Below are positions 6,231 to 30,867 of a stretch of DNA of 32,000 nt, piece by piece (positions within the stretch are counted from its first letter, which is position 1; each line of letters opens with the position of its first letter). The position numbers were made by a program, and so were the translations under genes. Origin of the DNA: an uncultured bacterium (GTDB lineage: Bacteria > GCA-001730085); assembly GCA_964565945.1 (NCBI GenBank), contig CAZMGY010000021.1, forward strand, positions 180,001 to 212,000, read 5' to 3'. Under the pieces are notes generated by a model. That model worked only from the letters and a program-made list of their open reading frames with translations. It was not told where the DNA came from and searched no databases.

Positions 6231-6312
6231 TGGAGGGTGGTGGATTTGAACCACCGTAGGCTACGCCAGCAGATTTACAGTCTGCCCCCTTTGGCCACTC
6301 GGGTAACCCTCC
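6231..6312 (-). tRNA. tRNA-Tyr (anticodon GUA), class II with long variable arm; CCA not encoded
   Basis: Hand-folded from the reverse complement. Acceptor is GGAGGGT/ACCCTCC. Anticodon stem is GCAGA/TCTGC with loop CTGTAAA. The variable arm is 13 nt. T arm is GGTGG-TTCAAAT-CCACC. Confidence 0.9.
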
Positions 6313-6353
6313 AATAAGATAACAAATCAATGTGATTGATTTCGGGGCATTTA

Positions 6354-6429
6354 TGGAGCTGGCGATGGGACTCGAACCCGCAACATGTTGATTACAAATC
6401 AACTGCTCTACCAATTGAGCTACGCCAGC
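6354..6429 (-). tRNA. tRNA-Thr (anticodon UGU), CCA encoded
   Basis: Hand-folded. Acceptor is GCTGGCG/CGCCAGC. D arm is GCTC-AATTGGTA-GAGC. Anticodon stem is GTTGA/TCAAC with loop TTTGTAA. T arm is GCGGG-TTCGAGT-CCCAT, with one C-A mismatch and one G-U pair. Confidence 0.85.
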
Positions 6430-6771: not shown

Positions 6772-9255
6772 ATGCTTCAAAGGATCATTTTATGGCAATT
6801 GGGTATATTACTCTTGTTGGGAGATGGCCTTAGTTGGGCGCTTGCTCCTGGGAGCATGTTTCAATCGGCTCTTCCAAATGTTTGGATTTCAAAATATCCA
6901 GGGGTGTTGATTTATTCGGCAGAGTTCAAACAGATACATTTGCAGGGAGATCGGTCACAATCACTTAGTGAGCTAGTCGAGAATCCTGAATGGATGACAC
7001 TCGATCTCGAGAAACACTTATTAGAGCTACGTCAGAATCAAAATCAACGTCAAAAAATGAGAGAAGAGATTCTGGCAAAATTAGATGGTTGGGGTATGCG
7101 TTTTAACAAAAATAGCGGGAGGTTTTCTCTAAATTTCGAACAAAATCATTACCAGTTGGCAAAAAAATTGGTTCATGATAACCACGAAGAACTGTTTTAT
7201 ATGATTCAAAGCCTTATTTTGGGTGGCGATGCTAATCTTGGGACAGAGATCTATTATTCTTTACGAAGTTATTATAGGGAAGGTTATTTTTGGAGTCAAA
7301 CAGGGTTTGATACGATGGCTTATTTTTCTCTAAAATTACACGAACGATTAAGGCGTAAAGAGTTACTGTCTTGGCCACGCCTTGATCAAAAGGCAAGGTA
7401 CAGCGATAATAATGCTGACATTGCTTTTGAGAACGTGGAAGGACAAGTTATCCTAACGTTTAATAACGATCAAACCTTACGTTACTTTATCGATAAGCTC
7501 AAAACCTCTAATCTCTTGTTTTTATTTGATTACAATCCAGAATATCCACTGGTGTTGAGAATGCCAGAAGCTCGGTACACTTCTTTTAATCAAGAGTTAA
7601 CTTTATTGGGGCAAGATGAAGCTATTATTAAGAGGTTCGGGGTATTCTTGGACAAGGTTAGTTATAATCGAAAAGTTATGGGGGAGCATGGGTTCCAGTT
7701 AGGTACTTTTTCTTTAAAAAAACTTCTAAAATCAGTTCAAGTACCTAATGCTTCTAGTAAGAAAATCCAGCTTGATGACCGACTTTTTCACTTTGTTGAA
7801 CAAAAGCCAGCTGGAGCTATGCCAGGAGCTGTGTACGAAGAAAAAAACAAGCGCTGGTTGATTAAGTGGGGGGGGAACTTAGGGACGATAGAGTCCCGAG
7901 AACCGACATATAGCTACGAGAGAAGTATACGAGAGGTGATGACCGCCAAATTTATTAAAAATTTTGGCTTTAATGTTCCAGCCCATAAGCTTGTTCGCGG
8001 TCAACAGGGTTACTTGTACGTGGCTTCAGAATATAAGCCTGAGCAGCTCTACGAGTTTGAGTCTCTGCGACATATGAATGTTTTGGATAGAGTGGATAAA
8101 GAATCTTTGCAAGACCTTATGTTGCTGGCGCTATTAACCCATGATCTAGATTTATTTAATCCTGTTAATGGAAATATTTTGTTTGAAAAAAAGGGCGATC
8201 GCTATGTCCCCTTTATTGTCGATACGGCTGAGTTTTTAAATGGGAAAAGAGGGAATATGTCGGTTTTTGATAAGGAAATCGGGCAAGGGCTTCGAAATGT
8301 GTTGTTAACATCCTCTTTTTTCGCGGGTTATAGGGGATTTATGCGCAACTGGATTTGGCAAGATGTTTCTGAGCAAGTTCTTTATGAGAAAGCGCGAGCT
8401 GTTGATGCTAAGTTACAGCAGAAAACAGATGCGACTTCAATTGCGAGTTTGTTAGAAAATGTTGAGATTCCGCCTTTAGATCCGGATGATAAAAATGTTT
8501 TGGAAAATTATGGGGAGATTGATTACGAGCAAAGCATTTTAAAAAAGATAACGGCAGATTTTCAAACTGTGAGGGATGTTTGGGGGAAGAGCTATCGAAG
8601 TGATGTCGAGAAAAATTTCGTTCCTTCGCAAATGATTGATATTCAATACACGATTTCGGAGCAAAAGCTTTCGTTGAATTTTCATAACACTCATCAAATG
8701 AAGAGGGTGGAAGCCTGGTTTGAACAAAATATGCCTAAAGGTTCATGGATGCGTAGCCACAGTGACATAAACAAGATTATTCTTTTGTCCCCCCTTTTAA
8801 AAAGGATAGATCAGAGTAAATCTTTAAGGGAGAGTAGGCACATTGTTTGGGACTTTGGGAGCGAAAATCTTAAAAAAAAGTTCTTTCGAGAGGTTTTAGG
8901 GCATGCAGAATTTTATTCAGGCAGCGAGTGGCAGCGTAATGTGAACGAGCTAGTGCGAAGAATCCGTTTTGAGGACTCGCCCTTATTGCAGCAAATAGAC
9001 CGAATGACCTATATTCAGATAGATGACGAGACAAAGGTATACCTGCAATGGGTTCCTGGCCAAGAATCTCTTTTATATCAAATGTTTTTGCAAGGGCTTC
9101 TTGTTGAGGAGACGCCCTCTGGCAAGCAAAATGTCATCCAAGATGAGAGCACTTTAAAGGGCATTACTTCAAAGTTGTTGTTAAACAAAGGTATTGTCGT
9201 GTCTAAAACATCTAAGGTTTCTTCGTCATTGCAATTACTGAGGCAAGCTGCTTAG
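6772..9255 (+). CDS. large signal-peptide protein of unknown function with a central protein-kinase-like / lipid-kinase-like core
   Basis: 827-aa uninterrupted ORF. The N-terminal hydrophobic signal is ILWQLGILLLLGDGLSWALA. The central region (aa ~340-490) has RWLIKWGG (candidate Lys), SIREVM (candidate Glu), LLTHDLDLFNPVNGNILF (catalytic-loop-like H-D...N) and IVDTAEF (DFG-like Asp). I recognise no other family. Confidence 0.8.
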   Translation: MLQRIILWQLGILLLLGDGLSWALAPGSMFQSALPNVWISKYPGVLIYSAEFKQIHLQGDRSQSLSELVENPEWMTLDLEKHLLELRQNQNQRQKMREEILAKLDGWGMRFNKNSGRFSLNFEQNHYQLAKKLVHDNHEELFYMIQSLILGGDANLGTEIYYSLRSYYREGYFWSQTGFDTMAYFSLKLHERLRRKELLSWPRLDQKARYSDNNADIAFENVEGQVILTFNNDQTLRYFIDKLKTSNLLFLFDYNPEYPLVLRMPEARYTSFNQELTLLGQDEAIIKRFGVFLDKVSYNRKVMGEHGFQLGTFSLKKLLKSVQVPNASSKKIQLDDRLFHFVEQKPAGAMPGAVYEEKNKRWLIKWGGNLGTIESREPTYSYERSIREVMTAKFIKNFGFNVPAHKLVRGQQGYLYVASEYKPEQLYEFESLRHMNVLDRVDKESLQDLMLLALLTHDLDLFNPVNGNILFEKKGDRYVPFIVDTAEFLNGKRGNMSVFDKEIGQGLRNVLLTSSFFAGYRGFMRNWIWQDVSEQVLYEKARAVDAKLQQKTDATSIASLLENVEIPPLDPDDKNVLENYGEIDYEQSILKKITADFQTVRDVWGKSYRSDVEKNFVPSQMIDIQYTISEQKLSLNFHNTHQMKRVEAWFEQNMPKGSWMRSHSDINKIILLSPLLKRIDQSKSLRESRHIVWDFGSENLKKKFFREVLGHAEFYSGSEWQRNVNELVRRIRFEDSPLLQQIDRMTYIQIDDETKVYLQWVPGQESLLYQMFLQGLLVEETPSGKQNVIQDESTLKGITSKLLLNKGIVVSKTSKVSSSLQLLRQAA

Positions 9256-23460: not shown

Positions 23461-23483
23461 CAAGCGCAGTGTGCTTGCTTTTT
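23461..23483 (+). terminator. weak hairpin plus T-tract downstream of the nitrilase-family gene
   Basis: CAAGC-gcagtgt-GCTTG followed by CTTTTTG. The stem is only 5 bp, so this is tentative. Confidence 0.2.
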
Positions 23484-23575
23484 GTATTATCCAATAAGTA
23501 TACTTTACAAAGCATAAAGTGTAGATCTTATAGCAAACTATGGAATGTGTAGAATAAAAACTATAGAGTGGAAGG

Positions 23576-23604
23576 TTTACAAAATAATATATACTTTATA
23601 TAAT
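23576..23604 (+). promoter_or_regulatory. sigma-70-type promoter candidate for the merR-like / secretin cassette
   Basis: TTTACA, a 17-nt spacer, then TATAAT. It lies 60 nt upstream of the TTG start at 23664, in a 380-bp AT-rich non-coding region. Confidence 0.45.
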
Positions 23605-23663: not shown

Positions 23664-23930
23664 TTGTTGGAAAAATTGTACCGTATTGGGGAAATTATGG
23701 AATACAGTGGTTTGTCTCGGCAAACTGTGCATTTATATACGCAGATGCGCCTGATTCAAGAAAAGAAACGAACCCATTCTGGCTACCGGCTCTATGATGA
23801 ATACGTCTTTAAACAAATAGAAATCATCAAAGCCTTACAGGCCTTAGGTTATACCCTTTTAGAAATCAAAGATATCTGTGATCAGGGAAAAGTTAAGGAA
23901 GCATTCAAGAAACATGGGGTGAAGTTATGA
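23664..23930 (+). CDS. small MerR-family HTH regulator (DNA-binding domain plus short helix, no effector domain)
   Basis: YRIGEIMEYSGLSRQTVHLYTQMRLI....HSGYRLYDE....IEIIKALQALGYTLLEIKDI is the MerR winged-HTH pattern. The TTG start follows GAGGAG. The stop overlaps the next gene (ATGA). Confidence 0.8.
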   Translation: MLEKLYRIGEIMEYSGLSRQTVHLYTQMRLIQEKKRTHSGYRLYDEYVFKQIEIIKALQALGYTLLEIKDICDQGKVKEAFKKHGVKL

Positions 23931-25822
23931 GTAAACAAGATCTTCGTGGCCAAGTTTTGCTTAATGCAGGAGTGATCAATCAAGCGCAATTGGATAAAGC
24001 TCTAGAAATTCAAAAAGATAGTATGCAACGTATTGGGCATGTTTTGGTGGATGCTGGATTTATTTCGGAGGAGGAAATGTTATTGGCGATGGAGCGTCAG
24101 AGCGGCATCCCTTGGATCAAATTAAGACTATCGGATATTCAAGGCAGTGCCATTGCTTTGATGTCTCAAGATATTGCTCAACGTTATGCGTGTTGTCCCG
24201 TTAAAGAAGAAGGAGAGATCTTGACGGTAGCTATTTCGGATCCTTTATCGTACGAAGATATCGACGACATCCGCTTGGTTGTGAAAAAAGAGATCGAGCT
24301 TATTCTTGTTTCGGAGTCCAGTGTTTTAAGAGCGTTGAATCAATTTTACGAAATTGATCCGAAAGAGGTTTTTGCGACGATGACGCCCAAACCTCATGAG
24401 AGTGAAATAGTTGAGGTCGAAGAGGTTCTTGAGGATGTATCGCGAGAAGATAATATTGTACCAGTTGAGCTTGCGCCGTCTTCCGAAGTTGCTCCAGAGA
24501 TATTTTCCGAAGAACCTGTGGAGGAAGAGATTTCCGAAGTGGTGGTTGAACCTGAGCTTGTGTCTATTCCCGAAAGTGAATCCGAAACGGATACGGCACA
24601 AAACCTAATAGACGAGAGTGAAGAACCTGTTGCCACTGTGCCCGAGGTTAAAGAAACGCTTGTCGAAGAGCCCCTTGTTTGGCTGGACAAAATGGAGGAG
24701 CAGGATTTTTGGGATCTTGTTCTTGATGAGGTTGATTTAGCGAGTGATATTTATTTAGAAAATGACCCTGAAAATCTTAAAGTTCGCTATCGTGCGGATG
24801 GCGTGATTGTCAAAGAACAACTGATAAGCAAAAAGTCGCCCGTGTATCAAAAATATTGGGAGGTTTTGTTGAAATGGAATGCTCAGTCGATGCAAGGGCC
24901 TATTCAGTCTTTGTTTGCCAATGTTGGTCGTTTGCAAAGGCGAGTCAAGTTGACCTTTCTTTCGGATCGTTATGGACAGGATGTGCATTTGAAATGTTTA
25001 TTTTACGAAGAACCTGTGACGAGTTTTGATCACTTGGGACTGAATGAGTTTTGCCATCAGCAATTGGAAGCATTCTTGATGCGAAAAAAAGGTGTTCTCC
25101 TTTTGTTGGGCGATGCCGATTCGGGTTTGAGTACGACGCTTAGGGTGTTGGGACGATCTTTGTCGCAGCAAAAACGAAAGGTTCTTAGTTTTGAGCGTTT
25201 TATCGAATATGATGTTCCGGATATTTACCAATTTGAATCAGAGTCGTTTGAACTAGGGTATATCTATCAAGACATGAGTAAAATTTTCGATATTAATCCC
25301 GATGTTTTTATCTTTGCTAATTTGCCTCAGCCAGCCTGGGCACATTTTTTGCTTGAGGCTTCTTTTTCTGGGAAATTAGTTGTTTTAGGAATGAATGCAA
25401 AAAACCTTAATAGTGTTTTTGTCAAAATTGAAGAATTAGGCGTGCACAAAAACATTTTTATTAACGAGATTGATTGCGTGCTTCGCCAAAGTTTATTTCG
25501 TCTTAATTGTCCTGGATGTGGGGATATTGATGAAAAATCTTCCGAGCATGATATGAAGTATTTACTAGGGGAAGGTCTTTTCTATAAAGGGACTGGCTGT
25601 GAGTTATGTTATGCAACGGGTTATCAAGGGCGTCGAGCTATTTTTGATGTCTTGGAGGTTGATGAAGCTGTCAAAGAGTTGATGAAAAATGATATCACCG
25701 AAAAAGATATTAGTAAGATGCGTGCGGAGCAAGGTGGCGTTAGCTTGGCACAAGAGGCTGTCAGAATGATACAGGAACGGTACACGTCAATAGAGGAAGT
25801 TCAGAGAATTGGATTGGTTTAA
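23927..25822 (+). CDS. GspE/PilB-family protein with an N-terminal MshEN (T2SSE_N) domain and a catalytically degenerate ATPase core
   Basis: Tandem MshEN motifs occupy aa 6-58, followed by an acidic linker. ASDIYLENDPENLKVRYRADGV matches the N2 domain. The Walker A position reads GDADSGLS, Walker B reads PDVFIFANLPQ, and the His box reads SGKLVVLGMNAKN. The CPGC...CELC zinc motif is retained. Confidence 0.85.
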   Translation: MSKQDLRGQVLLNAGVINQAQLDKALEIQKDSMQRIGHVLVDAGFISEEEMLLAMERQSGIPWIKLRLSDIQGSAIALMSQDIAQRYACCPVKEEGEILTVAISDPLSYEDIDDIRLVVKKEIELILVSESSVLRALNQFYEIDPKEVFATMTPKPHESEIVEVEEVLEDVSREDNIVPVELAPSSEVAPEIFSEEPVEEEISEVVVEPELVSIPESESETDTAQNLIDESEEPVATVPEVKETLVEEPLVWLDKMEEQDFWDLVLDEVDLASDIYLENDPENLKVRYRADGVIVKEQLISKKSPVYQKYWEVLLKWNAQSMQGPIQSLFANVGRLQRRVKLTFLSDRYGQDVHLKCLFYEEPVTSFDHLGLNEFCHQQLEAFLMRKKGVLLLLGDADSGLSTTLRVLGRSLSQQKRKVLSFERFIEYDVPDIYQFESESFELGYIYQDMSKIFDINPDVFIFANLPQPAWAHFLLEASFSGKLVVLGMNAKNLNSVFVKIEELGVHKNIFINEIDCVLRQSLFRLNCPGCGDIDEKSSEHDMKYLLGEGLFYKGTGCELCYATGYQGRRAIFDVLEVDEAVKELMKNDITEKDISKMRAEQGGVSLAQEAVRMIQERYTSIEEVQRIGLV

Positions 25823-27305
25823 AAAGCTAAAACAGAAGCTTAAGTCGTTTAAGAAGATAGGTGTTTTCACTTATGTGGGATTGGATGTTTTAGAAACATC
25901 GTTCCCTCAGTATGTGGTTCTTCATAAGACGAAGAAAACATTCTCTTTGTACGATTGTGGGCGCATTTTTAATCGAGACGAAGTGTTGGGGAAGATTAAA
26001 GATCTTAATGTTAAAGTTGCTGTTTCAATCCCTCGAGATAAGGTGATTGTCCGTGTGATGGATATTTCTTATCAGGAATCGCAGAGTTTAGTTGAAGTGA
26101 TTATGGAGCATGCTGAACAGGCGGTTCCCTTTGCTTTAGGGGAATTGTTCTGGAAATATTTTATTATTAAGAAATCCAAAAATAAAGCGGTTGTTATTTT
26201 TTGTGCAGTGACCAAAGAAAAATCGAATCAGTATGCCCAAGAGCTTAAAGGCATGGGGCTTAAAAATGTAGTGATGACGGCATCCACCTTGTCTTATGTG
26301 AATACCTTCCTTTTTAATCATTGTGATGAGCTTTCGAACAAAAGTTACTTATTGGTTGATATTGGTATGCGGCAATTAGAGTTGTGCATTATCGAAGACG
26401 GTGTTCTTGTTTTGACGCGAAGCTTGAACCTCGGCATCGAATATATGTTGCGTATGCTTATGGATAAGTTCGATATTGATTTTCCTACAGCTCAAAAAGT
26501 TGTGTTTGGAGCACCTAAAAACAAAGAAGAACCTGAGGAGGAAACGCTTTTGAATGAAACGGTTGTACGTGAAGTTTTTCATGTTTGGACCGAGCGTGTC
26601 TTGCGCGAAATAGAGTTAGCGAAAAGGTTTTATGCTAGCAAATACGCCAAAAAAATCGACAGCTTAGTCATGAGCGGTTGCCCGATTCAATATGGTTACG
26701 ATTTGGATTATATTGCGAATGTGATGAGCAAGCACTTTGACCTAGAAACGATGCTGTTAGACCCTCTGAAAAATGCTATTTTGGATCACCAATCCCTTGT
26801 GCATCAAGAGGATTTGCAACAGATCAATAGCTTGGCGATTCCTATGGGCTTGGCGCTTCAGTTGGTTAAGCAAGCTCCTCTGATGATCAATTTGAATGGG
26901 CAAGACAAAGATATTCGTGAAGAGAGTTCTTATTGGTCACATATGGCGGGACAAAAAAACAAAGTTTTGGCCATAGGTGTTGGCATTATTTTGTGTGTGT
27001 TGGCAGCCCAGAGTTATTTTATTAAAAAATCTCAGATCAAGAAAAATAAAGTTCTCAAATCGGAATATGTCTTGAGTCAAAAACAAGCAGTGACCTTTAA
27101 AAAGAAAATAAAAAAGCAAAAAGAAAAATTGGGACGTATTCATATTCCTCAAAGTCTTTTTTTAGATGTTCATACCTATTTTTCTCAAAAGAAGCAGGAG
27201 GAGTCCACACTAAGGTATGAGAAGTATTTGTTTCAATCTGGGAAGGGGATTGTTTATGCCAAGGATGCCGAGGGGCAAGAAGTGATTGAAGAGGTGACGT
27301 TATGA
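25809..27305 (+). CDS. PilM-like actin-fold protein fused to a TM plus PilN-like tail (GspL-like architecture)
   Basis: The N-terminal ~370 aa show the PilM pattern (VGLDV..., AVPFALGELFWKY, LLVDIGMRQLELCII, SLVMSGCP). A single TM helix (VLAIGVGIILCVLAAQSYFI) and a ~100-aa Lys-rich tail follow. The TTG start overlaps the upstream gene by 14 nt. Confidence 0.65.
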   Translation: MDWFKKLKQKLKSFKKIGVFTYVGLDVLETSFPQYVVLHKTKKTFSLYDCGRIFNRDEVLGKIKDLNVKVAVSIPRDKVIVRVMDISYQESQSLVEVIMEHAEQAVPFALGELFWKYFIIKKSKNKAVVIFCAVTKEKSNQYAQELKGMGLKNVVMTASTLSYVNTFLFNHCDELSNKSYLLVDIGMRQLELCIIEDGVLVLTRSLNLGIEYMLRMLMDKFDIDFPTAQKVVFGAPKNKEEPEEETLLNETVVREVFHVWTERVLREIELAKRFYASKYAKKIDSLVMSGCPIQYGYDLDYIANVMSKHFDLETMLLDPLKNAILDHQSLVHQEDLQQINSLAIPMGLALQLVKQAPLMINLNGQDKDIREESSYWSHMAGQKNKVLAIGVGIILCVLAAQSYFIKKSQIKKNKVLKSEYVLSQKQAVTFKKKIKKQKEKLGRIHIPQSLFLDVHTYFSQKKQEESTLRYEKYLFQSGKGIVYAKDAEGQEVIEEVTL

Positions 27306-27844
27306 AAAAGTTACAAGAACTTTGGCAACATTTCAACTTCTTTTCCTTCAATCATCGAAGTGTCCTCATTGTGGGAGGGGGTTTTCTTATTTTGCTTATC
27401 GCTATTTTATGGATGAAAAGTCAAAGCCGAGCGTATTGCAATGAGAATGCCTTGTTAGAGCATCAAATTCATAAGTTTTGGGTCGAATATCAAAAGTTCC
27501 AGCAGAAAAATCACAAAGAGATAATGGCGATCAAAGAGATTGGCGTTCTCAAAAATGATAAGCAGATTGCCAAAGAGGGTAAGCGTCTTCGAGAAAAAAT
27601 GATTAAAATAACTGAGCAAGCTATTTGGAGTGTGGATACTTTGCCTGCCAAAAAAGATAAGGGGATTATCAAACTAAGTTTTTTGCTCAAGTTTTCAAAG
27701 CCAACTTTGGCTAAAATTATGCAGGTGATTTATGTTTTAGAACAAGATGAAGAGTTGTTTTTTATTGACGAAATTGAGCTCACTAAGGGTGGAGCAGGTG
27801 TTAGTGCTAAACTCCTTTTAAAGAGGCTATACATTGCGAGGTAA
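27302..27844 (+). CDS. PilO/GspM-like bitopic inner-membrane protein
   Basis: 180 aa with a short cytoplasmic N-terminus, one TM helix (VLIVGGGFLILLIAILWM), a coiled-coil-like stretch and a small C-terminal domain. ATGA overlap with the upstream gene. The assignment is from architecture and position only. Confidence 0.4.
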   Translation: MKKLQELWQHFNFFSFNHRSVLIVGGGFLILLIAILWMKSQSRAYCNENALLEHQIHKFWVEYQKFQQKNHKEIMAIKEIGVLKNDKQIAKEGKRLREKMIKITEQAIWSVDTLPAKKDKGIIKLSFLLKFSKPTLAKIMQVIYVLEQDEELFFIDEIELTKGGAGVSAKLLLKRLYIAR

Positions 27845-27847
27845 ATT

Positions 27848-28348
27848 GTGAAATTTGTTGCTTTGAGAATGATTTTTGTTTTATTGGGACTTTTGGTGAC
27901 AGGTCAACTCTATGCCGAGGCCAAAGCTTTTCAAAAAACGCCTTTGGACGAGTGGGATGTGTACAGGGGGGCGTTTCAGCTAGATATTTTTAGAGAGCCA
28001 CGTATCGAGACCCAGTCTGTGAATAAGGGAGGAGAGATAGTGGTTTCGTTGGATCAAAATCTTGGAATAGAGGCTGATGAGATGATGCAATCTCTTCAAG
28101 ATATGGTGAGTTTGCCCCCCCCCGAAGAATGTATTGATATCGATTGGGCTTTGTACGATATCACAATCACGGGTGTCGGGTTTGTGAGTGGTCGTCCTAA
28201 AATCTTTTTTGAAAACAGGGCGACGGGAAAAAGTTATTATCTTGCCCAAGGGCAAGAAGAAGATGGAATTCGTGTTGAACAAATCAGGCGATTGGCTATT
28301 ATTTTTAGAATTCAAGGGCAAAAGCTTAAGATTGATCGCCAATTTTAG
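27848..28348 (+). CDS. PilP / GspC-HR-like periplasmic protein
   Basis: Signal peptide MKFVALRMIFVLLGLLVTGQLYAEA. The C-terminal ITITGVGFVSGRPKIFFENRATGKSYYLAQGQEEDGIRVEQIRRLAIIF fits the PilP/GspC homology-region beta-sandwich pattern. Lies immediately upstream of the secretin. Confidence 0.45.
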   Translation: MKFVALRMIFVLLGLLVTGQLYAEAKAFQKTPLDEWDVYRGAFQLDIFREPRIETQSVNKGGEIVVSLDQNLGIEADEMMQSLQDMVSLPPPEECIDIDWALYDITITGVGFVSGRPKIFFENRATGKSYYLAQGQEEDGIRVEQIRRLAIIFRIQGQKLKIDRQF

Positions 28349-28380
28349 TATAATAGTTTCGTGATGGAGGAAGTGTGTGC

Positions 28381-30867
28381 ATGAAATTAGTAATTCAGTT
28401 TTTTTTAATGACTTTGTTGGCTATAGGGCTGCAGGTTGATCTTGGGGCTCAGGAAATGGCACAAGGCCCGATGGTGTCTATGGATTTTCATGAAGTTGAC
28501 GTGGATAGTGTTCTTCATTTTTTGGGAGAGGCTTCGGGTTTAACAATTGTTAAAGACCCTACATTAACGGGGACGATAAGTATTACCACTTTTGGGAAGA
28601 CGTCGGTGGGACAAGCAATTAACATTTTGAATAGTGCTTTGAGTGTCAAAGGTTTTACGTTGGTCAAAACAGGGGAGGTTCTTAAAATAGTTCCCCTAGA
28701 AGGCGTTTCTAAAACCAATGTGAACGTATTTAAAGATTATAAGATGCCTGCGAATGAACCTAAAGATGACACCGTTGTGACCAAAATGATTTCTTTGCAA
28801 TATGCCAAAGCTAAAGATGTTGTTACGGCTTTGCAGCCGTTGGTGGGGCGATTTGGCTCGGCGATTGCTTACGAAAGAACAAATACGGTTATTATTACCG
28901 ACGCTTCGGCCAATATTGCACGCTTAACCGACTTGCTTGAAGATTTGGATCGTCAAGTGACCTCTTTGGTGACACGTTCTTACAAGGTTCAGCATGCTGG
29001 GCTAAACAAGCTGAAGGACTTACTTAAACAAATTACTGAGCAGTATGAACACGAATTGGGGCACTTTGCAATCAATTCGGATGAAAGAACGCGAACCCTA
29101 TTTGTGACCACCCTTCTGGATAATTTTGACATGGTTGAAAAGCTGATTTATCAGCTTGATCAAGGAATACCTCAGGTGCTTATCGAAATGGAAGTAGTTA
29201 GAATTCCTTACCGCAACATTGATGTTGATATACGACACCGTCTTTTTGAGTCATCAAAATATGCACATGATAAAAAGGTGATGAACGAGGGTGATCAAAT
29301 TTTTAATTGGAGATACAGTATTGATGCCGATGCCGATAAAATGTTTTCTTGGTATGGGCTATCTGAAGATAAGGGTAAAGAAGAATTTACCTACAAGTTG
29401 AATGTGTTGTATGGACCCGAATATTTTGATGTGTATGCCTTACCGATGGTGACTGTGGCTGAAGGGAGCCAAACCGAGGTATCTATAGGGCACGAAAATT
29501 ATTTTTACCGCTTGGCTCCAATGACGCTCGACTTTAAAATTATTCCTCATTTGAATGAAGATGAAACAGTTACTTTAGAAATGTTCCAACATGTTCGAGG
29601 AGATTGGCTCAAAACGCAAGATGCCTATGCACGTTTGGTGGTTGCCAAGGATCAAACTGTTGTTTTAGGGGGGCTTAATGAGCTGCGTTTACCTCAAGAC
29701 CGTCAGGTGGCCTCGGCGTATCGCGAAGATACCCACTATGTAAGCAATGAATTTTTGATTTTTTTAACTCCGCATATCATTTGGGATCCAGCTACGTTTA
29801 AAAAGAAAATTGAGAAACAGGCCAAGGAAGCGGCCCTTAAAGCCGAAAAACCCGATTTAAATCTTTTGTTTCCTGGTGGTTTTATGGAATTTGATTTGCC
29901 CAAAGTGTCTGCGATGACCAAACAGAAACATCCTACTCAAGATGATTTTGTAAGCCCAAATCCTGGGGTGGAGTTAAAGGTTGATGAGGGCTCACATGGG
30001 CCACCAACCCAAAGCAAATCCTATAAAATTTGGTGGAAGATGCAAGATTTTGTACAATTGCCCGAGGAGCTTGTTGACATTAAAGAGGCAATGTCGGATC
30101 GCAACTTTGTTGACAGTGAGGTGAGAAGCCGTTTGCGCAAGGATGTTGTTCAGTTTATGGAGAATGTTCGTGCCGAAGAAACCTTGGGCATGGAGCCCGA
30201 TGTGAGCTTGAAAACCAAAGTGACACCTGTTCCCGAAAAAGAGAATTATGTTCTTAAAGAAACACTCTATCGTCGAGGTATTTCTTTTTACAAAAAACAA
30301 CAGTATAAAGGGGCGATTCGTGAATTTGCTCCGATTATGAGTATCGATCCAAACTATAAGAATGTGCAAAGATATATGCAGTTATCACAACAGCGTTACA
30401 AAGAACAGTTATCGGATTTGGGAGAGCGCAATAATATCGAAAAGGCCATTAAAGACAAGGCCTTGAAAGAATTGACCCAAACATACACGACGATGGATCA
30501 AAAAATCAAACAGGTGTCTCAGGCAGAGTCGATGGGAGCTTACACCAAGAGTGACAAGTTGTTTAATTATATTGGAGAGCCTAAGGATATTCCTTCCGAT
30601 CGCATTGAAAAGTCATTGACCGATCACTTAGCGGGAGAAATCTTGGAAGTTAGTGCTGCTCAACCCCTTGTGGTGATTAATCTTGGTTCGATTCAGAATG
30701 TTCATCCAGGGATGGCTTTCAAAGTGTATCGGGATCAGGAGTTTATCGGTAAAGTTCGTGTGTCCGATGTTGGAGAGCATGTTTCTGGAGCCGAGGTGGT
30801 TTCGACCAAAACTCCGAAAACAACTTTTCGTTTTGGAGATAAGGTGGTACAGGCCCTTGTAGCATAG
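28381..30867 (+). CDS. GspD-like secretin with a divergent short pore domain and a ~360-aa C-terminal extension
   Basis: Signal peptide, then an N0 domain (MDFHEVDVDSVLHFLGEASGLTIV...GEVLKIVP), then two N1-type repeats (NTVIITDASANIARLTDLLEDLD; RTLFVTTLLDNFDMVEKLIYQLD). The secretin core begins at QVLIEMEVVRI and ends at NEFLIFLTPHII. ATG 28381 (GGAGGA, 7-nt spacing) is preferred over GTG 28375. Confidence 0.8.
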   Translation: MKLVIQFFLMTLLAIGLQVDLGAQEMAQGPMVSMDFHEVDVDSVLHFLGEASGLTIVKDPTLTGTISITTFGKTSVGQAINILNSALSVKGFTLVKTGEVLKIVPLEGVSKTNVNVFKDYKMPANEPKDDTVVTKMISLQYAKAKDVVTALQPLVGRFGSAIAYERTNTVIITDASANIARLTDLLEDLDRQVTSLVTRSYKVQHAGLNKLKDLLKQITEQYEHELGHFAINSDERTRTLFVTTLLDNFDMVEKLIYQLDQGIPQVLIEMEVVRIPYRNIDVDIRHRLFESSKYAHDKKVMNEGDQIFNWRYSIDADADKMFSWYGLSEDKGKEEFTYKLNVLYGPEYFDVYALPMVTVAEGSQTEVSIGHENYFYRLAPMTLDFKIIPHLNEDETVTLEMFQHVRGDWLKTQDAYARLVVAKDQTVVLGGLNELRLPQDRQVASAYREDTHYVSNEFLIFLTPHIIWDPATFKKKIEKQAKEAALKAEKPDLNLLFPGGFMEFDLPKVSAMTKQKHPTQDDFVSPNPGVELKVDEGSHGPPTQSKSYKIWWKMQDFVQLPEELVDIKEAMSDRNFVDSEVRSRLRKDVVQFMENVRAEETLGMEPDVSLKTKVTPVPEKENYVLKETLYRRGISFYKKQQYKGAIREFAPIMSIDPNYKNVQRYMQLSQQRYKEQLSDLGERNNIEKAIKDKALKELTQTYTTMDQKIKQVSQAESMGAYTKSDKLFNYIGEPKDIPSDRIEKSLTDHLAGEILEVSAAQPLVVINLGSIQNVHPGMAFKVYRDQEFIGKVRVSDVGEHVSGAEVVSTKTPKTTFRFGDKVVQALVA

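What the first reader, a model, noticed from the sequence alone, without database searches (positions are those of the whole stretch)
23927..25822. GspE/PilB homologue keeps both MshEN c-di-GMP-binding motifs with exact spacing, but every ATPase motif is destroyed
I compared the protein with the published MshEN consensus RLGxx(L/V/I)(L/V/I)xxG(L/V/I)(L/V/I)xxxxLxxxLxxQ, which occurs as two 24-residue copies joined by a 5-residue spacer. Copy 1 is LRGQVLLNAGVINQAQLDKALEIQ (aa 6-29), the spacer is KDSMQ, and copy 2 is RIGHVLVDAGFISEEEMLLAMERQ (aa 35-58; nt 23942-24100). The Gly3, Gly10 and Gln24 positions, the hydrophobic positions and the spacer length all match. The only differences are that RL is inverted to LR in copy 1 and that copy 2 has conservative hydrophobic substitutions (I, F and M for L/V/I or L). 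The C-terminal T2SSE core is alignable but degenerate. Walker A GPTGSGK(S/T) has become GDADSGLS (nt 25109-25132). The Asp box EDP(I/V)E has become ERFIEY. Walker B DPDxxxVGEIRD has become NPDVFIFANLPQ. The His box TGHLVxSTLHTN has become SGKLVVLGMNAKN. The tetracysteine motif (CPGC...CELC) is preserved. The sensor module is conserved while the catalytic motifs are degenerate. That suggests a pseudo-ATPase acting as a c-di-GMP receptor or adaptor rather than a decaying gene, and the ORF is intact over 631 codons.
Basis: partly seen in the sequence, partly recalled or inferred. Interest (0 to 1): 0.7.

Follow-up and report, generated by a model that had tools for sequence, protein, structure and literature searches.

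The report
Dead pilus-motor ATPase keeping its sensor
An uncultured marine PVC-group bacterium encodes a conserved relative of the pilus/secretion motor ATPase PilB/GspE/MshE that has lost its ATP-hydrolysing residues but keeps a highly conserved N-terminal c-di-GMP-type sensor, and it sits at the head of an operon for the pilus alignment proteins and the outer-membrane pore, so it is probably a regulatory or scaffold subunit and not a motor.

Summary
ORF 23927-25822 (+) is an intact 631-aa MshEN+T2SSE protein. Both 24-residue MshEN motifs and the 5-residue spacer are present. Walker A, Asp box, Walker B and His box are all non-canonical, and the four zinc cysteines are kept.

It is not a decaying gene. 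An exhaustive search of 1.84 billion representatives found two full-length orthologues (35-39% identity), one fragment and one more distant relative. All carry the same remodelled motifs (DLRGQ N-terminus, GDxxSG[LIV]STTL, GMN[AV]K). Where context is visible, they share the same operon: MerR-like, pseudo-ATPase, PilM-N fusion, two small envelope proteins, secretin. A 14-nt overlap into the PilM gene is conserved.

Constraint is inverted. The sensor helices are 49-69% identical and the ATPase core 21-36% (ratio 1.6-2.4). Canonical PilB pairs give 0.64±0.10, maximum 1.06.

The closest named genome is the PVC bacterium AB1_div from the bryozoan Bugula neritina.

Caveats:
- c-di-GMP binding is unproven. 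Motif I has LRG instead of RLG, which moves the critical Arg and changes one guanine pocket.
- A genuine ATPase elsewhere in the genome could not be checked.

Verdict: a new variant of a known kind, of moderate interest.

The parts
23461..23604 (+). Likely operon boundary. A terminator-like hairpin with a T-run (23461-23477) follows the CN-hydrolase gene. It is followed by a promoter-like site, TTTACA-17-TATAAT (23576-23604, 11 of 12 matches).
   Evidence: (consensus scans only; inference).
23664..23930 (+). Small MerR-family HTH protein (88 aa; no effector domain). Its stop overlaps the pseudo-ATPase start (ATGA).
   Evidence: Pfam MerR_1, 46 bits. NCBIfam hits cover the HTH only and are below cut-offs. 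It is 76% identical to the MerR-like gene in the same position in L009. A MerR-like gene also heads the P0079 locus. It is absent in L008.
23927..25822 (+). The pseudo-ATPase (631 aa), a PilB/GspE/MshE homologue with all four catalytic motifs lost.
23942..24100 (+). Four-helix MshEN_N sensor segment (aa 6-58): two 24-aa c-di-GMP-type motifs and the KDSMQ spacer. This is the most conserved part of the protein.
   Evidence: NF053729, 55.3 bits. 27 of 58 columns are invariant in the three full-length family members. Identity within the family is 49-69%. pLDDT is about 95.
24101..24355 (+). MshEN_C / N1 sub-domain (aa 59-143). It is the counterpart of the GspE N1 domain that docks on GspL/PilM.
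   Evidence: Pfam MshEN covers aa 60-143. It is 49% identical to the orthologues. The docking role is inferred from 4PHT and PMC11656802.
24395..24673 (+). Acidic, predicted-disordered linker (aa 157-249). Its length varies among orthologues.
   Evidence: pLDDT below 50. Identity is 18-31% and there are gaps.
24737..25822 (+). Degenerate T2SSE core (N2 + CTD, aa 271-631). It contains the pseudo-P-loop GDADSGLS (25109-25132), ERFIEY, NPDVFIFANLPQ, SGKLVVLGMNAKN and an intact CxxC...CxxC motif.
   Evidence: Pfam T2SSE covers aa 271-627. Foldseek TM-score is up to 0.80 to PilF/PilB. The query keeps 16 of 45 near-invariant CTD columns.
25809..27305 (+). PilM-PilN fusion-like (GspL/MshI-like) protein of 498 aa. 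It has an actin-like cytoplasmic domain, an INL motif, one TM helix and a periplasmic tail. Its TTG start lies 14 nt inside the pseudo-ATPase gene.
   Evidence: Pfam PilM_2, 72.5 bits. TIGR01175 gives 82 bits and the Amuc_1101 family 81.7 bits, both below cut-off. The TM helix and INL motif were read from the sequence. The overlap is conserved in L008 and L009.
27302..27844 (+). 180-aa bitopic protein with an N-terminal TM helix, a coiled coil and a beta-rich C-terminal part. The PilO/GspM-like role is assigned by position and architecture only.
   Evidence: The sequence is. No Pfam hit reaches its cut-off (one weak IcmW match, 21 bits) and there is no NCBIfam hit. The orthologue in L008 is 22% identical. 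The single-sequence AF2 model is too weak to use (pLDDT 61).
27848..28348 (+). 166-aa exported protein with a signal peptide and a C-terminal beta domain. The PilP/GspC/GspB-like role is assigned by position.
   Evidence: The sequence is. There is a weak T2SSB hit, 18 bits, below cut-off. The orthologue in L008 is 30% identical.
28375..30867 (+). Secretin (828-830 aa). The N0 and N1 domains are clear, the pore domain is barely recognisable, and there is a C-terminal extension of about 350 aa with a TPR-like stretch.
   Evidence: Pfam N0 45 bits, Secretin_N 74.7 bits, Secretin 16 bits (below the 27.5 cut-off). TIGR02517 GspD gives 148 bits over the N-terminal 243 positions only. It is 46% identical to the L008 secretin.

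Best explanation
The gene encodes a conserved, catalytically dead paralogue of the type IV filament assembly ATPases (PilB/GspE/MshE). It keeps the fold, the zinc-binding CxxC...CxxC module and, above all, the N-terminal MshEN module, but it can no longer bind or hydrolyse ATP in the canonical way.

It is co-transcribed, and probably translationally coupled, with a PilM-N fusion, two small envelope proteins and a secretin. These are the alignment and outer-membrane sub-complexes of a T2SS/T4P-like machine.

Most likely mechanism (inferred):
1. The protein docks through its N1/MshEN_C domain and ring-forming core into the cytoplasmic PilM socket of this trans-envelope complex.
2. It acts there as a ligand-controlled, non-motor occupant. 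This could be a scaffold, a placeholder or a brake that decides whether the complex is assembled, open or accessible to a real motor.
3. The four-helix MshEN_N bundle reads a cyclic dinucleotide, most probably c-di-GMP.

Shown here: loss of the catalytic motifs, retention of the fold, family-wide conservation, inverted constraint and conserved operon linkage.

Inferred: hexamer or PilM docking, ligand identity and regulatory output.
For: Motif loss, placed against solved PilB/PilF/GspE structures and against 200 homologues:
- 190 of 200 keep the Walker A Lys. The query keeps 1 of 6 key catalytic residues.
- The query keeps only 16 of 45 near-invariant CTD columns and 14 of 29 N2 columns.
- It keeps 6 of 6 N-terminal and 11 of 14 C-terminal columns, including all four Cys.
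- The P-loop carries two Asp (GDADSGLS).

Fold is kept:
- The AF2 model has mean pLDDT 81.5, with the N-domain near 95.
- The best Foldseek matches are GspE (4pht), PilB (5tsh) and PilF (5oiu), TM-score up to 0.80.

It is not decay:
- Orthologues P0061 (641 aa), P0062 (581 aa) and the fragment P0101 are 35-39% identical.
- They share DLRGQ, GDxxSG[LIV]STTL and GMN[AV]K.
- The former motif windows are still the most conserved CTD segments: 18 of 55 columns invariant against 8 of 80 elsewhere, Fisher p=0.0016.

Constraint is inverted:
- The N-motif region is 49-69% identical and the CTD 21-36%, a ratio of 1.56-2.38.
- 3114 canonical PilB pairs give 0.64±0.10, maximum 1.06.

The sensor is recognised by a curated model: NF053729, 55.3 bits against a cut-off of 38. 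Gly3 and Gln24 of both motifs are invariant in the family.

The operon is conserved:
- L008 has E*, PilMN, 172 aa, 146 aa, secretin.
- L009 has MerR, E*, PilMN.
- The P0079 locus has MerR, E*, pseudopilin, PilM, 280 aa, secretin.
- All components are orthologous.
- The 14-nt E*/PilM overlap is conserved at nucleotide level.

Background from the literature: PilB docks in the PilM socket through N1, and the extension and retraction ATPases compete for that socket (PMC11656802).
Against:
- Motif I reads LRG, not RLG. The Arg that stacks on guanine and the Leu of one hydrophobic triad are swapped, and M51/M55 replace the other two Leu of that triad.
- In PilF GSPII-A, loss of the position-1 Arg of motif II abolished binding. 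Even a fully restored consensus did not bind in the intact domain (PMC12002112).
- In the orthologues, position 1 of motif II is Lys, not Arg.
- No GGDEF, EAL or PilZ gene, c-di-GMP riboswitch, prepilin or GspF/PilC gene lies between 9.4 kb upstream and 8.9 kb downstream of the window.
- High conservation of the N-domain could reflect protein-protein contacts with PilM or the MerR-like protein, not ligand binding.
- The family has only about four known members, all from metagenomes.
Confidence: 0.55

Rival explanations
1. It is a non-catalytic structural subunit that binds no nucleotide messenger. The MshEN module is conserved only because it is the docking surface for the PilM-N protein (as GspE N1 docks on GspL) or for the MerR-like protein. 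The protein is then a static part of the cytoplasmic ring.
For: - The Arg/Leu swap in motif I and the Met substitutions alter one guanine pocket.
- MshEN-like domains with near-consensus motifs can be non-binders (PMC12002112).
- No c-di-GMP genes are nearby.
- The gene is tightly coupled to PilM-N and to a highly conserved MerR-like gene (76% identity).
Against: - The ligand-contacting Gly3 and Gln24 of both motifs, and Arg/Lys1 of motif II, are invariant across the family. The four-helix bundle is more conserved (27 of 58 invariant columns) than the N1-like sub-domain that does the docking in GspE-GspL (24 of 85).
- The curated c-di-GMP motif model is passed.
Confidence: 0.25
2. It is still the working motor of this system and uses non-canonical residues. 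It would be a fast-evolving but active ATPase in a divergent, host-associated lineage.
For: - It is the only T2SSE-family gene in about 50 kb and sits at the head of the machine's operon.
- The remodelled P-loop and His-box stretches are conserved, which could mean a new active site.
- The distant relative P0079 keeps GxxxxGKT.
Against: - The Walker A Lys, the Walker B catalytic Glu and both His-box His are all replaced in every close family member; the Asp-box Asp is replaced in two of the three full-length members.
- Several conserved Arg are also replaced in the query.
- The P-loop gains acidic residues.
- No platform protein (GspF/PilC) or pilin on which a motor could act lies in the operon.
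- The ATPase core is the least conserved part of the protein.
Confidence: 0.07
3. It is a recently inactivated gene (pseudogene in the making) that happens still to be open.
For: All four catalytic motifs are lost. The lineage is host-associated and fast-evolving, with AtpD 85% identical to AB1_div but this protein only 35% identical to the presumed AB1_div copy.
Against: - Intact full-length ORFs exist in at least three lineages 35-39% identical to each other, with the same substitutions at the former motifs, the same operon and the same gene overlap.
- The conservation is structured, with N-domain, zinc site and ex-motifs above the rest.
- The gene is identical in 17 contigs.
Confidence: 0.02

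Closest known systems
Vibrio cholerae MshE (MSHA pilus extension ATPase; MshEN domain, PDB 5HTL)
   Same: - Same architecture: MshEN_N four-helix bundle with two 24-aa motifs and a 5-aa spacer, MshEN_C/N1, linker, N2, CTD with tetracysteine.
- phmmer E=4.5e-13 to 5HTL. The NF053729 'MshE-related' motif model is passed.
- To my knowledge the MSHA system also uses a PilM-N fusion (MshI); this was not checked here.
   Different: - MshE is an active ATPase whose activity c-di-GMP controls. Here every catalytic motif is lost.
- Motif I starts LRG, not RLG.
- The gene lies in a B*-MN-O-P-Q operon without platform protein or pilins.
Type IVa pilus PilB / Thermus PilF / T2SS GspE (PDB 5TSH, 5OIU, 6F8L, 4PHT, 1P9R)
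   Same: - These are the best sequence and structure matches: phmmer E=3e-54 to 5e-31 and Foldseek TM-score up to 0.80.
- N1 docking on GspL/PilM is the model for the inferred partner contact.
   Different: - It fails the NCBIfam equivalog cut-offs by a wide margin: PilB 176.7 against 675.65, GspE 166.6 against 630.25.
- It keeps 16 of 45 near-invariant CTD columns.
- Its conservation gradient is the reverse of theirs.
Enzyme-derived c-di-GMP receptors such as FimX (degenerate GGDEF-EAL regulator of PilB)
   Same: The logic is the same: a catalytic fold that has lost catalysis serves as a messenger-dependent regulator of a type IV pilus machine (PMC11656802).
   Different: - The fold is unrelated.
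- In FimX the dead domains are the messenger-metabolising ones. Here the dead domain is the motor itself, and the sensor is a separate, intact module.
Thermus PilF GSPII-A domain (PDB 9G1W)
   Same: It is an MshEN-like domain with near-consensus motifs whose ligand binding cannot be predicted from the motif alone.
   Different: GSPII-A lacks Gln24 in both motifs and Arg1/Gly3 in motif II (PMC12002112). The domain here keeps all of those and deviates at positions 1-2 of motif I.
Akkermansia muciniphila Amuc_1098-1102 (MUL2) pili-like cluster
   Same: - It is also from the PVC superphylum.
- It is a cluster of pilin-like, PilM-like, small envelope and secretin genes, with no motor ATPase described in the locus (PMC5332112, PMC13174399).
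- The 498-aa protein here hits the Amuc_1101 family model over 367 residues.
   Different: - The score is far below the family cut-off (81.7 against 650) and no better than generic PilM (82.3).
- The other components give no hits.
- No PilB-like gene is described in the Akkermansia locus.
Archaellum ArlH/FlaH
   Same: It is a RecA-type protein that binds but does not hydrolyse nucleotide and acts as an accessory of a type IV filament motor (PMC5019145 title and abstract, seen).
   Different: It belongs to a different family (KaiC-like), keeps Walker A, and has no cyclic-dinucleotide sensor.

Membership tests
T2SSE secretion/pilus ATPases (PilB/GspE/MshE; PF00437) | Homologous N2+CTD fold | tested here: met
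   Pfam T2SSE 119.4 bits against 24.9. AF2 plus Foldseek give TM-score up to 0.80 to PilF/PilB.
T2SSE secretion/pilus ATPases (PilB/GspE/MshE; PF00437) | Walker A GxxGxGK[ST] with the catalytic Lys | tested here: not met
   The sequence is GDADSGLS, with Lys replaced by Leu. The orthologues have Ile or Val. 190 of 200 homologues keep Lys.
T2SSE secretion/pilus ATPases (PilB/GspE/MshE; PF00437) | Asp box (EDPxE), Walker B with catalytic Glu (GExRD), and His box (two His) | tested here: not met
   The sequences are ERFIE, FANLPQ (Glu replaced by Asn) and SGKLVVLGMNAKN (His replaced by Lys and by Asn).
T2SSE secretion/pilus ATPases (PilB/GspE/MshE; PF00437) | Tetracysteine zinc motif of the GspE/PilB subgroup | tested here: met
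   C528, C531, C558 and C561 are invariant in all aligned sequences.
T2SSE secretion/pilus ATPases (PilB/GspE/MshE; PF00437) | Curated equivalog score for PilB, GspE, TfpB or ComGA | tested here: not met
   176.7 against 675.65; 166.6 against 630.25; 133.2 against 850; 58.4 against 300.
T2SSE secretion/pilus ATPases (PilB/GspE/MshE; PF00437) | Encoded with, or acting on, a GspF/PilC platform protein and prepilins | tested here: inconclusive
   None was found in the operon or within about 50 kb. The rest of the genome could not be searched.
T2SSE secretion/pilus ATPases (PilB/GspE/MshE; PF00437) | ATP binding and hydrolysis | not testable with these tools
   This needs the purified protein.
MshEN c-di-GMP receptor domain (PF05157 / NF053729) | Domain models passed at curated cut-offs | tested here: met
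   PF05157 61 bits against 23.1. NF053729 55.3 bits against 38.
MshEN c-di-GMP receptor domain (PF05157 / NF053729) | Two 24-residue motifs joined by a 5-residue spacer, with Gly3, Gly10 and Gln24 in both | tested here: met
   aa 6-29, 30-34 and 35-58. The residues are G8, G15, Q29 and G37, G44, Q58. They are invariant in the family.
MshEN c-di-GMP receptor domain (PF05157 / NF053729) | Arg (or Lys) at position 1 and Leu/Ile at position 2 of each motif | tested here: not met
   Motif II is met (R35-I36). Motif I is L6-R7. Arg at position 2 occurs in no other lineage among 163 aligned motifs.
MshEN c-di-GMP receptor domain (PF05157 / NF053729) | Two hydrophobic triads that stack the guanines (MshE L25/L29/L39 and L10/L54/L58) | tested here: inconclusive
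   The first triad is kept (L22/L26/I36). The second is R7/M51/M55 (triads as described in PMC12002112).
MshEN c-di-GMP receptor domain (PF05157 / NF053729) | Binds c-di-GMP | not testable with these tools
   This needs ITC, DRaCALA or MST on residues 1-150.
Akkermansia Amuc_1098-1102 / MUL2-type cluster | Components pass the Amuc_110x family models | tested here: not met
   Only the PilM-like protein hits, at 81.7 bits against a cut-off of 650. The other components give no hit.

The most novel reading that the evidence does not exclude
The trans-envelope PilMN-O-P-secretin complex of this PVC lineage is run without a dedicated motor. Its only PilB-type subunit is a dead ATPase whose remodelled MshEN pocket (Arg at motif I position 2, Met at motif II position 17) reads a messenger other than c-di-GMP, for example c-di-AMP. 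The c-di-AMP cyclase gene cdaA lies 4.4 kb downstream of the secretin gene. The subunit would use messenger binding, not ATP turnover, to gate or assemble the secretin channel.
Probability: 0.08. Interest if true: 0.85.

Novelty: new variant of a known kind. Interest (0 to 1): 0.55.

Why it matters
PilB/GspE-type ATPases are treated as the obligatory motors of type IV pili, type II secretion and related machines, and automated annotation names any T2SSE-domain protein as such an ATPase. This finding is a conserved family in which the motor chemistry has been discarded. The cyclic-dinucleotide sensor, the zinc module and the link to the PilM socket are kept.

If the explanation holds, the ring-shaped motor fold can be re-used as a pure signalling or scaffold element. 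That parallels pseudokinases and degenerate GGDEF/EAL receptors.

It would also give a natural separation-of-function variant for asking what the MshEN domain does apart from tuning ATP hydrolysis. That question is still open for MshE, PilB2 and Myxococcus PilB (PMC11656802).

Two further points:
- Several other, unrelated MshEN-T2SSE proteins with a lost Walker A Lys turned up as orphan genes, so pseudo-PilBs may be an overlooked class.
- The limits are that the family is tiny, comes only from uncultured organisms, and no function has been tested.

Tried and rejected
- **Word-index homologue searches.** They returned only canonical PilBs at 20-25% identity. The protein's own 90% cluster is represented by an unrelated 47-aa peptide, which hides it. 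The family was found only by the exhaustive search.
- **Genome-collection scans and a JGI metagenome scan.** None found an orthologue.
- **dN/dS.** This was abandoned. Seven strain contigs differ from the window at no more than 1 base in the gene, and the orthologues are 35-39% identical, so synonymous sites are saturated. Domain-wise conservation against a canonical control was used instead.
- **AF2 of the 180-aa neighbour.** As a single sequence it gave pLDDT 61, too poor for a fold search, so the PilO/GspM-like label rests on position and architecture only.
- **Candidate intermediates.** P0078 turned out to be an ordinary E-F-pilin locus. P0123 and P0210 are degenerate but are orphans in unrelated contexts. 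None of these belongs to this family.
- **Searches around the window.** Scans for a prepilin signature and a GGDEF motif, for a c-di-GMP riboswitch, and for c-di-GMP or T2SS genes in the flanks found none.
- **Literature searches.** I looked for a described PilB/GspE pseudo-ATPase and for the SRA runs and found nothing relevant. The library is limited to open-access papers.
- **The MerR link.** The best promoter-like site has a normal 17-bp spacer, not the 19-20 bp spacing that, to my knowledge, is typical of MerR-activated promoters, so no claim is made.


Full report
**1. The observation**

The ORF at 23927-25822 (+) is intact and encodes 631 aa. Pfam finds MshEN (aa 60-143, 61 bits) and T2SSE (aa 271-627, 119 bits). 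NCBIfam's curated 'cyclic di-GMP-binding domain, MshE-related' model NF053729 matches aa 8-58 at 55.3 bits against a cut-off of 38.

Counting residues confirms the layout. Motif I is L6-Q29, the spacer KDSMQ is aa 30-34, and motif II is R35-Q58.

HMMER alignments to solved structures (Thermus PilF 6f8l, Geobacter PilB 5tsg) place the degenerate stretches opposite the canonical motifs:

| Query | Canonical motif |
|---|---|
| GDADSGLS | GPTGSGKS/T |
| ERFIEY | EDPVEY |
| NPDVFIFANLPQ | DPDIIMVGEIRD |
| SGKLVVLGMNAKN | TGHLVxxTLHTND |

C528/C531/C558/C561 are kept. The gene is identical on 17 contigs from independent runs.

**2. How degenerate, and how unusual**

I aligned 200 homologues with a profile. 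They are the best hits of the two searches, so they are biased towards sequences that resemble the query.

- 190 of 200 keep the Walker A Lys and 190 keep the Walker B Glu.
- 181 and 183 keep the two His-box His.
- The query keeps 1 of 6 key catalytic residues.

Against 55 mostly canonical PilBs, the query retains these near-invariant columns:

| Region | Near-invariant columns kept |
|---|---|
| CTD | 16 of 45 |
| N2 | 14 of 29 |
| N-terminal domain | 6 of 6 |
| C-terminal region (includes all four Cys) | 11 of 14 |

Several conserved arginines are also gone.

The fold is nevertheless retained. The AF2 model has mean pLDDT 81.5, about 95 in the N-domain, with a disordered acidic linker at aa 157-249. 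Foldseek's best matches are GspE-GspL (4pht), PilB (5tsh) and PilF (5oiu), with TM-score up to 0.80.

**3. It is a conserved family, not decay**

The word-index searches missed all relatives. The protein's 90% cluster is represented by an unrelated 47-aa peptide.

The exhaustive HMMER search of 1.84 billion representatives found these relatives:

| Protein | Length | Identity to query |
|---|---|---|
| P0061 | 641 aa | 36% |
| P0062 | 581 aa | 39% |
| P0101 | 226-aa fragment | 38% |
| P0079 (more distant) | 546 aa | 28% |

- The close relatives carry the same remodelled motifs: N-terminus DLRGQ(I/V)(L/M)LNAG, pseudo-P-loop GDxxSG[LIV]STTL, GMN(A/V)K in place of the His box, and the four Cys.
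- P0079 keeps GxxxxGKT but has lost the other three motifs. It looks like an intermediate state.
- Within the three full-length proteins, the former motif windows are still the best-conserved parts of the CTD. 18 of 55 columns are invariant against 8 of 80 elsewhere, Fisher p=0.0016. The site has been remodelled and is then held, not left to drift.

**4. Inverted constraint**

| Pairs compared | N-motif region identity | CTD identity | N-motif/CTD ratio |
|---|---|---|---|
| Within the family | 49-69% | 21-36% | 1.56-2.38 |
| 3114 canonical PilB pairs of comparable overall divergence | 38% | 59% | 0.64±0.10 (max 1.06) |

**5. Context**

A terminator-like hairpin and a good promoter-like site precede a small MerR-like gene. 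Its stop overlaps the start of the pseudo-ATPase gene.

The 3' end of the pseudo-ATPase gene overlaps by 14 nt the TTG start of a 498-aa protein. That protein has a PilM domain (Pfam 72.5 bits), an INL motif and one TM helix, which makes it a PilM-PilN (GspL/MshI-like) fusion. It is followed by:
- a 180-aa bitopic protein;
- a 166-aa exported protein;
- an 828-830-aa secretin.

The same order is found in L008 and L009 and, with a GspG-type pseudopilin inserted, in the P0079 locus. The components are orthologous at 22-46% identity, and the MerR-like protein at 76%. The 14-nt overlap is conserved at nucleotide level.

No GspF/PilC, prepilin, second T2SSE gene, GGDEF/EAL/PilZ gene or c-di-GMP riboswitch lies from 9.4 kb upstream to 8.9 kb downstream of the window.

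**6. Organism**

AtpD of the window is 85% identical to that of 'PVC group bacterium (ex Bugula neritina AB1)'. This is the AB1_div bin of Miller et al. 2016, a deep-branching PVC lineage with a 1.9-Mb genome (PMC5041132).

P0061 comes from the same sequencing run as that genome (SRR4020083). Its contig has matching G+C, 36.4% against 37.2%. It is therefore most probably the AB1_div orthologue; this is an inference.

The window lies near the replication origin, with gyrA, gidA, parAB and the atp operon just upstream. That fits the uniform GC skew.

**7. Mechanism**

The following are shown: a dead catalytic site, a retained fold, a retained and dominant sensor module, and obligatory genetic linkage to PilM-N, O- and P-like proteins and a secretin.

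Established knowledge is that PilB/GspE dock through N1 into the PilM/GspL socket, and that the extension and retraction ATPases compete for that socket (PMC11656802; structure 4PHT).

From this I infer that the protein occupies that socket as a non-motor subunit whose state is set by a ligand bound to the four-helix bundle. It would act as a scaffold, placeholder or brake for the trans-envelope complex. Whether a real motor exists elsewhere in the genome could not be tested.

**8. The ligand caveat**

- Gly3 and Gln24 of both motifs, and Arg1 of motif II, are the residues shown to be required in PilF resurrection experiments. All are present here.
- Motif I begins L-R-G instead of R-L-G, and M51/M55 replace Leu. 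All three residues of one guanine-stacking triad differ (R7/M51/M55), while the other triad is canonical (L22/L26/I36).
- Arg at position 2 occurs only in this family among 163 aligned motifs.
- Even a perfect consensus did not bind c-di-GMP in the intact PilF GSPII-A domain (PMC12002112). Binding here is plausible but unproven, and an altered specificity cannot be excluded.

**9. Comparison and novelty**

By architecture, the closest known protein is V. cholerae MshE (an MshEN sensor with an active ATPase). PilB, PilF and GspE are the closest in structure.

The protein passes the domain models but fails every equivalog cut-off and four of the defining catalytic features. It should therefore not be filed as a PilB/GspE ATPase.

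Functionally it resembles enzyme-derived c-di-GMP receptors such as FimX. The PilM-like neighbour shows a weak, sub-threshold resemblance to the Amuc_1101 family of the Akkermansia pili-like (MUL2) cluster, another PVC machine for which no ATPase is described in the locus (PMC5332112, PMC13174399).

I found no description of a PilB/GspE pseudo-ATPase in the searchable literature.

Other MshEN-T2SSE representatives with a lost Walker A Lys exist (P0210, P0112, P0123, P0160, P0188). The two whose loci I examined, P0123 and P0210, are orphans in unrelated lineages. The phenomenon may therefore be broader than this family.

I rate the finding a new variant of a known kind. Interest is moderate to fairly high for specialists. 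It is limited by the tiny, uncultured family and the absence of any functional test.

Noticed in passing
window 28375-30867: The secretin is atypical. The N0 and N1 domains are clear, but the pore-forming Secretin domain scores only 16 bits (cut-off 27.5). About 350 extra C-terminal residues with a TPR-like stretch follow. The L008 orthologue (964 aa, 46% identical) has the same layout with a longer extension.
   Followed up: partly
window 23664-23930; L009 1047-1310: The 88-aa MerR-family protein consists of little more than the HTH. It is 76% identical between lineages in which the pseudo-ATPase is only about 36% identical. It heads the operon in 3 of the 4 loci where the upstream gene is visible and overlaps the pseudo-ATPase start (ATGA). 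Its role is unknown; it could be a regulator or a partner of the pseudo-ATPase.
   Followed up: partly
protein cluster of window:23927-25819 (P0052-P0054): In the 90% clustering of the protein collection, this 631-aa protein is represented by an unrelated 47-aa peptide. Word-index homologue searches therefore never return it or its family. This is a database artefact that can hide proteins.
   Followed up: yes
P0210, P0112, P0123, P0160, P0188, P0157, P0201 (loci L018, L020): Other MshEN+T2SSE proteins from unrelated, partly high-GC lineages have also lost the Walker A Lys or several catalytic motifs while keeping xLG...Q motifs. The two whose loci were examined (P0123, P0210) are orphan genes next to housekeeping genes. 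Pseudo-PilBs may have arisen several times.
   Followed up: partly
locus of P0079 (JGI 3300072015; no DNA held): A more distant relative keeps Walker A (GPVCSGKT) but has lost the Asp box, Walker B Glu and His box. Its operon contains a GspG-type pseudopilin, and a weak PilZ-domain gene lies downstream of the secretin. It may be an evolutionary intermediate and a hint of a c-di-GMP link in that lineage.
   Followed up: partly
window 24395-24673 (aa 157-249): A long, strongly acidic (Glu/Val/Pro-rich) linker between the N1 and N2 domains is predicted to be disordered. It is longer than in canonical PilBs and varies in length among the orthologues.
   Followed up: no
window 6772-9255: An 827-aa ORF on the + strand has no Pfam or NCBIfam match at all.
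   Followed up: no
whole window; L023: GC skew is uniformly strong and positive (about +0.2), and most of the long ORFs lie on the + strand. gyrA, gidA, parA, parB and the atp operon lie immediately upstream, so the window probably lies on the leading strand close to the replication origin.
   Followed up: partly
L022 15277-16071 (about 4.4 kb downstream of the secretin, beyond the window end): A CdaA-type diadenylate cyclase gene (DAC domain) lies close to the operon. It is the only cyclic-dinucleotide enzyme seen in about 50 kb.
   Followed up: no
window 6231-6429 (-): Two tRNA genes lie on the minus strand between the atp operon and the 827-aa ORF.
   Followed up: no
L023 8937-9188 and 10001-10303; L014 5013-5264 and 6235-6420: The atp operon carries two c-subunit genes, one before and one after the a-subunit gene. 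This is so both in the source organism and in AB1_div.
   Followed up: no
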